From: Raja brachyura
Lineage: Eukaryota
Length of the DNA: 64,000 nucleotides
NCBI GenBank assembly: GCA_963514005.1
Contig: OY740782.1
Location: 77,190,001 to 77,254,000, forward strand
Direction: 5' to 3'
Shown: positions 25,918 through 26,197 of the stretch, one piece after another
How positions within the stretch are numbered: position 1 is the stretch's first letter
How the letters are laid out: every line of letters begins with the position of its first letter
Made by a program: the position numbers and the translations under genes
Notes under the pieces: model-generated
The model's input: the letters and a program-made list of their open reading frames with translations, nothing else
The model's database searches: none
What the model was told of the DNA's origin: nothing

Positions 25918-26197
25918 TCATGAAAAGCTGAAGTTAGCTGTGAGCTCCCGAATCCTGTTCTCACGGTTCATTTTCTTGAGTTTCATTCTGCGATTTTGAA
26001 ACCAGATTTTGACCTGTCTGTCAGTCAGGTGGACACTGCGGCTAATCTCTAGGCGACGCTCTCGAGTCAGGTACATGTTGAAAAGAAACTCTTTCTCCAG
26101 CTCCAGCGTCTGATGTTTGGTGTAAGGGCATCGTTTTTTCCTGCCCTGCCACTCTTTGCAGTCAGCCAGTTAGCCCCATTTTCAGCTTTCACCTCCC
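25918..26197 (-). CDS. hoxa10: HoxA10 exon 2 (homeodomain), frameshifted as assembled by a 5-bp duplication at 26141-26150
   Basis: Acceptor TTTACTTAATAG|GG, then [92 protein letters not shown] follows in a shifted frame. The exon is 280 nt versus 275 needed. Confidence 0.9.

What the first reader, a model, noticed from the sequence alone, without database searches (positions are those of the whole stretch)
26067..26150. 5-bp tandem duplication frameshifts HoxA10 immediately before the homeodomain
Seen: + strand ctgcc-ctgcc at 26141-26150 (minus AGT GGCAG GGCAG GAAAAAACGA instead of AGT GGC AGG AAA AAA CGA). Read as is, the protein runs ...[34 protein letters not shown] (TGA at 26069-26067) with no homeodomain. 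Removing 5 nt restores a 344-aa HoxA10. The homeobox is otherwise undecayed and an N-gap lies ~95 bp away, so an assembly artefact or a rare or very recent allele is more likely than an old gene loss. If fixed in the species it would be a notable Hox loss.
Basis: seen in the sequence. Interest (0 to 1): 0.75.

Follow-up and report, generated by a model that had tools for sequence, protein, structure and literature searches.

The report
Probable assembly error breaking HoxA10
Five bases written twice break the HoxA10 body-patterning gene in this cartilaginous-fish draft genome, but the gene is otherwise undamaged and the repeat sits exactly 100 bases from an assembly gap, so it is most likely a stitching error and not a real gene loss.

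Summary
A period-5 repeat at 26140-26150 shifts the frame of HoxA10 exon 2, giving 296 aa, a stop at 26069-26067 and no homeodomain. The window is a cartilaginous-fish HoxA cluster (A13, A11, A10, mir-196, A9, A7); the best relative is zebra shark HoxA10, 344 aa. The gene shows no decay: 91 of 91 exon-2 residues are identical, exon 1 is 236 of 253 identical with no lineage excess (8 versus 6 derived changes), and the four neighbouring Hox genes are intact. Two new clues point to the assembly. The second copy starts a block of exactly 100-101 nt that ends at the N-gap (3 of 4187 coding positions would do this). Also, 2 of 8 gap edges begin with an exact 5-base tandem, and none with periods 3, 4, 6, 7 or 8. 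Both clues are post hoc, and no reads could be examined. Estimate: artefact 0.82, rare real allele 0.13, fixed lesion 0.05. If real, rescue routes are weak: two poor cryptic acceptors and an in-register slippery heptamer with no stimulator. Interest is low until reads say otherwise.

The parts
27975..28734 (-). HoxA10 exon 1 (253 codons plus 1 nt), open, canonical GT donor at 27974
   Evidence: 236 of 253 residues identical to zebra shark HoxA10
26198..27974 (-). HoxA10 intron, 1777 nt including 277 N; strong acceptor (pyrimidine fraction 0.80)
25918..26197 (-). HoxA10 exon 2, 280 nt as assembled (5 nt longer than a 344-aa protein needs)
26140..26150 (.). Period-5 tandem repeat: the 5-nt insertion that shifts the frame two codons before the homeodomain
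26146..26245 (.). Block of exactly 100 nt (101 in the other register) from the second copy to the gap edge; the suspected appended segment
26246..26522 (.). Assembly gap, 277 N, in the HoxA10 intron, 48 nt from the acceptor
26523..26535 (.). Period-5 tandem beginning at the first base after the same gap (A-rich, low complexity)
35283..35293 (.). Period-5 tandem beginning at the first base after the gap 35143-35282
26067..26069 (-). Premature TGA reached in the shifted frame, in the last exon
25918..26145 (-). Intact homeobox frame: 75 residues, all identical to zebra shark; Pfam Homeodomain, model positions 1-57 of 57
26133..26139 (-). A_AAA_AAC heptamer in register for a -1 slip into the homeobox frame; no downstream stimulator
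26154..26155 (-). Weak cryptic AG acceptor; with the normal donor it would give 331 aa with the homeodomain but without the tryptophan linker motif
53912..55207 (-). HoxA13, intact two-exon gene (context and control)
39811..41811 (-). HoxA11, intact two-exon gene; start codon uncertain between 41850 and 41808 (context and control)
23996..24069 (-). mir-196 precursor between HoxA10 and HoxA9 (context)
   Evidence: RF00256, 72.7 bits
16764..18175 (-). HoxA9, intact two-exon gene, 260 aa (context and control)
7275..9007 (-). HoxA7, intact two-exon gene, 208 aa (context and control)

Best explanation
The animal has a normal 344-aa HoxA10; the five extra bases were introduced by the assembly. Shown: the insertion, the otherwise perfect gene, its position 100-101 nt from a gap edge, and 5-base tandems at two more gap edges. 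Inferred: a short-read contig ended near 26145, a 100-101 nt piece (one read, or one flank or extension unit of a gap-filling step) was attached towards the gap, and a 5-nt overlap at the junction was written twice instead of merged. The two tandems that start at the first base after a gap would be the same junction error with little or no new sequence added. The program responsible is not identified.
For: (1) Block from second copy to gap is 100-101 nt; 3 of 4187 coding positions in the five genes meet this, or 14 of 4187 with a wider set of nine common read lengths; within this exon 1% and 5%. That 100 and 101 are common short-read lengths is my recall; 100 nt is also the default flank of one gap-closing tool (PMC4515008, passages). 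(2) Only 53 of 4187 coding bases lie within 101 nt of a gap, and the only frameshift found in five genes is among them. (3) 2 of 8 gap edges begin with an exact period-5 tandem, 0 of 8 for periods 3, 4, 6, 7, 8; P about 2e-4 at the window rate, 5e-4 with local composition, 3e-3 after multiplying by six periods. (4) No decay: 91 of 91 exon-2 residues identical to zebra shark; exon-1 differences polarise 8 window, 6 zebra shark, 3 ambiguous against 13 named outgroups. (5) No protein with the shifted tail was found in two searches (both weak). (6) HoxA gene content is reported unchanged across sharks and rays (bioRxiv 10.1101/2025.06.08.657570, passages). (7) Errors at contig boundaries and false inactivating mutations are documented in draft assemblies (PMC8081667, PMC5865188, passages).
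Against: No reads were examined, so nothing here is direct. Both statistics were formed after seeing the data. 6 of 8 edges have no edge tandem, and none of the other 7 edges has a period-5 tandem 100-101 nt away. One of the two edge tandems is an A-rich run that could itself have caused the gap; a single edge tandem has P about 0.03. Window-wide, period 5 is no more enriched over shuffles than period 6 (ratios 1.42 and 1.41) and less than 7 or 8. About 80-90% of real short insertions are tandem duplications (PMC2374710, passages), so the shape of the lesion is exactly what a real mutation looks like. The tool with the 100-nt flank default is all-or-nothing and would not leave a gap, and the boundary duplications in PMC8081667 are read-length, not 5 nt; I found no description of a 5-nt junction error.
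Confidence: 0.82

Rival explanations
1. A real but rare or private allele: replication slippage duplicated five bases on one chromosome of the sequenced animal, and the assembler kept that haplotype. The stop is in the last exon, so the message would probably escape junction-dependent decay (established knowledge, recalled) and make a 296-aa protein with the N-terminal region and tryptophan motif but no DNA-binding domain; the carrier is covered by the other allele and by HoxB10 and HoxD10.
For: The lesion is a perfect tandem duplication, the commonest real insertion type. Zero decay fits a very young allele. Hoxa10-null mice are obtained and show mainly uterine defects and female infertility (PMC6357426, passages), so carriers should be viable; skate hoxa10, hoxb10 and hoxd10 share an anterior boundary (PMC8713815, passages), which suggests redundancy.
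Against: It leaves the 100-101 nt distance to the gap and the two edge tandems as coincidences. A null allele in a 91-residue stretch invariant against zebra shark should be very rare in any one animal (inference).
Confidence: 0.13
2. A real, fixed and very recent loss of HoxA10 function in this species.
For: The frameshift, taken at face value, removes the whole homeodomain. Paralogues could compensate. One stingray draft is reported to lack HoxA4, A5 and A6 (PMC10787021, passages), so HoxA losses have been claimed in a batoid. An in-frame upstream ATG at 28785 is also closed by a TGA.
Against: One lesion only, no excess of amino-acid change, strong splice sites. The upstream TGA lies before the start used by the zebra shark record, so it is probably not a second hit. 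A broader survey reports no HoxA gain or loss in sharks and rays. Position next to a gap.
Confidence: 0.03
3. A real, fixed insertion that is tolerated because the frame is restored at low level: by a -1 ribosomal slip (or an added A in the message) at A_AAA_AAC, which would give a full protein with a linker two residues longer, or by a cryptic acceptor at 26153 (331 aa) or donor 27971 with acceptor 26140 (328 aa).
For: The heptamer at 26139-26133 is in register and a -1 slip enters the homeobox frame; it fits the heptamer pattern described in PMC4066793 (start of abstract only). Two splice combinations keep the homeodomain.
Against: No stimulatory structure: the downstream RNA folds worse than shuffles (z +1.2; z +1.5). 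The heptamer is simply the conserved Arg-Lys-Lys-Arg codons seen in a new register. The cryptic acceptors have pyrimidine fractions 0.45 and 0.30 against 0.65-0.90 for the five true acceptors and a mean of 0.48 for 222 decoy AGs; both splice forms delete the tryptophan linker motif.
Confidence: 0.02

Closest known systems
Zebra shark (Stegostoma tigrinum) HoxA10, P0001, labelled Hox-A10b by NCBI
   Same: 344 aa, same start, 327 of 344 residues identical across the two frames, all 91 exon-2 residues identical.
   Different: It has the linker running in frame into the homeodomain; the window has five extra bases there. 17 exon-1 differences show a different species.
Elasmobranch HoxA clusters (little skate, horn shark; PMC2746220)
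   Same: Gene order A13-A11-A10-mir-196-A9-A7; skate and horn shark Hox proteins are typically 95-98% identical, the level seen here against zebra shark.
   Different: The two parts of the paper I read mention no broken HoxA10. The identity level does not separate shark from ray, so the window is placed only as a cartilaginous fish, most likely an elasmobranch.
False inactivating mutations and boundary duplications in draft assemblies (PMC8081667, PMC5865188)
   Same: Single lesion, conserved gene, beside a gap, unvalidated by reads: the class that gene-loss pipelines filter or check against raw reads.
   Different: The published boundary duplications are about one read long; here the duplicated part is 5 nt and the attached block is read-length. 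No exact precedent was found.
Hox pseudogenes such as zebrafish hoxa10a (recalled, no call)
   Same: Loss of a Hox10 homeodomain product.
   Different: That loss followed genome duplication with a sister copy retained (recalled); here no second HoxA cluster is expected and there is no decay.

Membership tests
HoxA10 orthologue | Position between HoxA11 and HoxA9 with mir-196 between groups 10 and 9 | tested here: met
HoxA10 orthologue | Exon-1 protein most similar to HoxA10 | tested here: met
   best hit zebra shark HoxA10, 93%, E 5.8e-149
HoxA10 orthologue | Two exons with canonical splice sites and homeodomain coding sequence in exon 2 | tested here: met
HoxA10 orthologue | Linker continuing in frame into the homeodomain | tested here: not met
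   as assembled the frame shifts; fixed linker length in 93 of 104 named homologues, 11 not matched by the pattern
Fixed unitary pseudogene | Several independent inactivating lesions | tested here: not met
   one frameshift only; the upstream TGA precedes the start used in zebra shark
Fixed unitary pseudogene | Relaxed constraint on the protein sequence | tested here: not met
   8 versus 6 derived changes in exon 1; 91 of 91 identical in exon 2. Protein level only; dN/dS not possible without orthologous DNA
Fixed unitary pseudogene | Lesion confirmed in raw reads and in several individuals | not testable with these tools
   no eukaryotic read or genome collection available
Fixed unitary pseudogene | Lesion shared by related species | tested here: inconclusive
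   absent in the zebra shark protein; shifted tail not found (weak); the other 24 members of the zebra shark cluster were not seen
Assembly artefact at a contig or gap junction | Lies close to a gap or contig end | tested here: met
   within the 53 of 4187 coding bases that are 101 nt or less from a gap
Assembly artefact at a contig or gap junction | Same signature recurs at other junctions | tested here: inconclusive
   2 of 8 edges start with a period-5 tandem (P 2e-4 to 3e-3, post hoc, one low-complexity); 6 of 8 do not
Assembly artefact at a contig or gap junction | Absent from raw reads | not testable with these tools
   no reads available
Programmed -1 ribosomal frameshift site | Slippery heptamer in register with the -1 frame open | tested here: met
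   26139-26133
Programmed -1 ribosomal frameshift site | Stimulatory stem-loop or pseudoknot a few bases downstream (feature recalled) | tested here: not met
   z +1.2 and +1.5, best nearby folds -1 to -5 kcal/mol; pseudoknots are not modelled by the folding tool
Programmed -1 ribosomal frameshift site | Conserved need for the shift in relatives | tested here: not met
   zebra shark and the other matched homologues read through in one frame

The most novel reading that the evidence does not exclude
The insertion is real and fixed: a shark or ray has very recently lost homeodomain-bearing HoxA10 from an unduplicated HoxA cluster, or keeps only a leaky supply through a -1 slip at the A_AAA_AAC heptamer that the insertion brings into register. 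It would be a natural Hox10 knockout or hypomorph in a lineage whose HoxA content is reported as constant, with a stable truncated protein that keeps its cofactor motif.
Probability: 0.05. Interest if true: 0.75.

Novelty: not a real feature. Interest (0 to 1): 0.13.

Why it matters
If it is an artefact, the practical point is that this assembly would yield a false Hox gene loss, and that it may carry a recurring 5-base duplication at gap junctions that can break other genes; exons within about 100 nt of gaps deserve checking. If it is real and fixed, it would be a HoxA10 loss in a cartilaginous fish without a duplicate cluster, and would make Hox10 redundancy at the trunk boundary and in the reproductive tract testable in a natural mutant. 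One read-mapping job decides between these.

Tried and rejected
Searches with the 42-residue as-assembled exon-2 frame found nothing: 1 candidate and 0 significant among longer proteins, 0 among 1.84 billion representatives. Both are weak, because even normal HoxA10 proteins sharing the first 17 residues did not score. The 25 sequences in the zebra shark cluster were not listed, so whether the same species has an intact record stays unchecked. A HoxA7 exon-1 search gave no named cartilaginous-fish HoxA7, so the species is unplaced. Alternative donors with the normal acceptor: none restores the homeodomain. A window-wide excess specific to period 5: not seen. Three period-5 tandems spaced 97 and 95 nt at 14221-14425 looked like repeated junctions but are A/T-run low complexity: rejected. 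A hairpin or repeat that might confuse sequencing at the site: none (z +1.4; no notable repeat). Five other long open frames have no Pfam match. Literature: searches (listings seen: 7 of 7, 25 of 27, 30 of 66, 5 of 6) showed no title or abstract start reporting a HoxA10 frameshift or loss in a shark or ray; PMC13097845 and PMC10115646 have no occurrence of the term hoxa10. Searches gave no listing describing a 5-nt junction error. No structure or complex prediction was run, as none bears on the question.

Full report
Observation. HoxA10 lies on the minus strand: exon 1 is 28734-27975 (760 nt), the intron 27974-26198, exon 2 starts at 26197. Spliced as assembled it gives 296 aa, ending at TGA 26069-26067; with five bases fewer the length would be 344 aa. 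The homeobox survives whole in another frame (Pfam Homeodomain 1-57 of 57). A gap of 277 N starts at 26246.

Context. The window holds five homeobox genes on the minus strand, HoxA13, A11, A10, A9 and A7, with mir-196 between A10 and A9. The best relative of exon 1 is zebra shark HoxA10, 344 aa, 93% identical; the next best are bony vertebrates at 65% or less. Skate and horn shark Hox proteins are typically 95-98% identical (PMC2746220, parts 1-2 of 4 read), so the organism is a cartilaginous fish, most likely a shark or ray, and is not placed further. Four N-gaps of uneven length, 140-409 nt, suggest a scaffolded short-read draft (inference).

Is the gene decaying? No. Against zebra shark, residues 254-271 and 270-344 are each 100% identical, in two frames, so all 91 exon-2 residues match and two are encoded twice. 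Exon 1 differs at 17 of 253 sites; with 13 named outgroups chosen from the 104 named hits, these polarise as 8 window-derived, 6 zebra-derived and 3 ambiguous. The normal acceptor is as strong as those of the four neighbours. Of 104 named homologues (16 unnamed hits left out), 93 match the linker pattern and all have the same linker length; 11 do not match the pattern, 5 of them lacking the homeodomain motif. HoxA13, A11, A9 and A7 all splice to open frames at canonical sites. An old loss is therefore unlikely. This is a protein-level test; dN/dS was not possible.

Clues to an assembly origin. First, the block from the second copy to the gap edge is 100 nt, or 101 in the other register. Of 4187 coding bases in the five genes only 53 lie within 101 nt of a gap, 3 would give a 100-101 block, and 14 would match a wider set of nine read lengths; within this exon the figures are 1% and 5%. 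That 100 and 101 are common short-read lengths is recalled. One gap-closing tool uses 100-nt flanks by default, though it is all-or-nothing, whereas two others extend gaps partially (PMC4515008, passages). Second, 2 of 8 gap edges begin with an exact period-5 tandem (26523 and 35283) and 0 of 8 with periods 3, 4, 6, 7 or 8; P is about 2e-4 at the window rate, 5e-4 with local composition and 3e-3 after multiplying by six periods. The nearest period-5 tandems to the eight edges give blocks of 100, 5 and 5 nt around two gaps and 568-1306 nt elsewhere. The simplest reading is a junction step that wrote a 5-nt overlap twice.

Results against that reading. Both tests are post hoc. Six of 8 edges show no edge tandem, no other edge has one at 100-101 nt, and one of the two edge tandems is A-rich; a single hit has P about 0.03. 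Period 5 is not specially enriched window-wide. About 80-90% of real short insertions are tandem duplications (PMC2374710, passages), so the lesion's form does not discriminate. Published boundary duplications are about a read long (PMC8081667, passages), and my searches (listings only) showed no account of a 5-nt junction error. No reads were available, and read validation is the accepted standard for such lesions (PMC5865188, passages).

Independent records. The shifted 42-residue frame found no match among longer proteins or among 1.84 billion cluster representatives; both are weak negatives. The zebra shark protein represents 25 sequences that were not seen individually, so an intact record from the same species is neither shown nor excluded.

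If it were real. The stop is in the last exon, so the message would probably persist (established knowledge, recalled) and give an N-terminal region plus tryptophan motif with a 25-residue foreign tail and no DNA binding. Three escapes were tested. No alternative donor rescues the frame with the normal acceptor; two cryptic combinations do (331 and 328 aa) but delete the linker motif, and their acceptors look like decoys (pyrimidine fraction 0.45 and 0.30; true sites 0.65-0.90; 222 decoy AGs average 0.48). The insertion also brings an A_AAA_AAC heptamer into register for a -1 slip into the homeobox frame (pattern as in PMC4066793, start of abstract only), but the downstream RNA is less structured than shuffles, so only basal leakage is expected.

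Comparison with what is known. A recent survey states that HoxA and HoxD clusters show no gene gain or loss in sharks and rays (bioRxiv 10.1101/2025.06.08.657570, passages; its Supplemental Fig. S5, which lists the species, could not be seen and bears on this claim). Elasmobranch HoxA clusters are described as reliably assembled with few gaps (PMC10620051, passages). Against this, one stingray draft is reported to lack HoxA4, A5 and A6, though not A10 (PMC10787021, passages). Skate hoxa10 is expressed with hoxb10 and hoxd10 at a shared boundary (PMC8713815, passages), and mouse Hoxa10 disruption causes uterine transformation and female infertility (PMC6357426, passages), so a heterozygous null is plausible and a fixed null would be surprising. 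Searches showed no listing that reports a HoxA10 frameshift in this group; the library lacks most subscription journals.

Verdict. The sequence feature is real in the assembly and probably not in the animal: artefact 0.82, rare real allele 0.13, fixed lesion with or without leaky rescue 0.05. Shown: the insertion, the absence of decay, the geometry relative to the gap. Inferred: the junction mechanism. Interest 0.13; it would be about 0.75 if reads from several animals carried both copies.

Noticed in passing
window 28774-28785 (-): The in-frame upstream ATG of HoxA10 is closed by TGA at its fourth codon, so the N-terminal extension present in 67 of 104 named homologues cannot be translated. 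The zebra shark record also starts at the second ATG, so this may be an old cartilaginous-fish trait that turns the extension into a 3-codon upstream ORF. No other chondrichthyan DNA was available to check.
   Followed up: partly
window 26523-26535 and 35283-35293: Two of the four gaps are followed immediately by an exact 5-base tandem; possible systematic junction error in this assembly.
   Followed up: yes
window 26133-26139 (-): The insertion puts the conserved Lys-Lys codons into register as an A_AAA_AAC slippery heptamer leading to the homeobox frame; no stimulator found.
   Followed up: yes
window 23996-24069 (-): mir-196 precursor, full-length Rfam match, at the usual place between HoxA10 and HoxA9.
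   Followed up: no
window 26198-27974: PMC2746220 describes a predicted non-coding RNA hairpin in the HoxA10 intron shared by cartilaginous fish and coelacanth. I did not locate it; the inverted repeat 26876-26892 / 27178-27194 was not tested as a candidate.
   Followed up: no
window 1453-1479, 25627-25649, 50497-50522, 60907-60932: Four long G or C homopolymer runs of 23-27 nt, one about 270 nt past the HoxA10 stop codon.
   Followed up: no
window 27971-27975 and 41198-41202 (-): HoxA10 and HoxA11 both have a second GT four bases after the main donor; in HoxA10 it pairs in frame only with the weak acceptor at 26140.
   Followed up: partly
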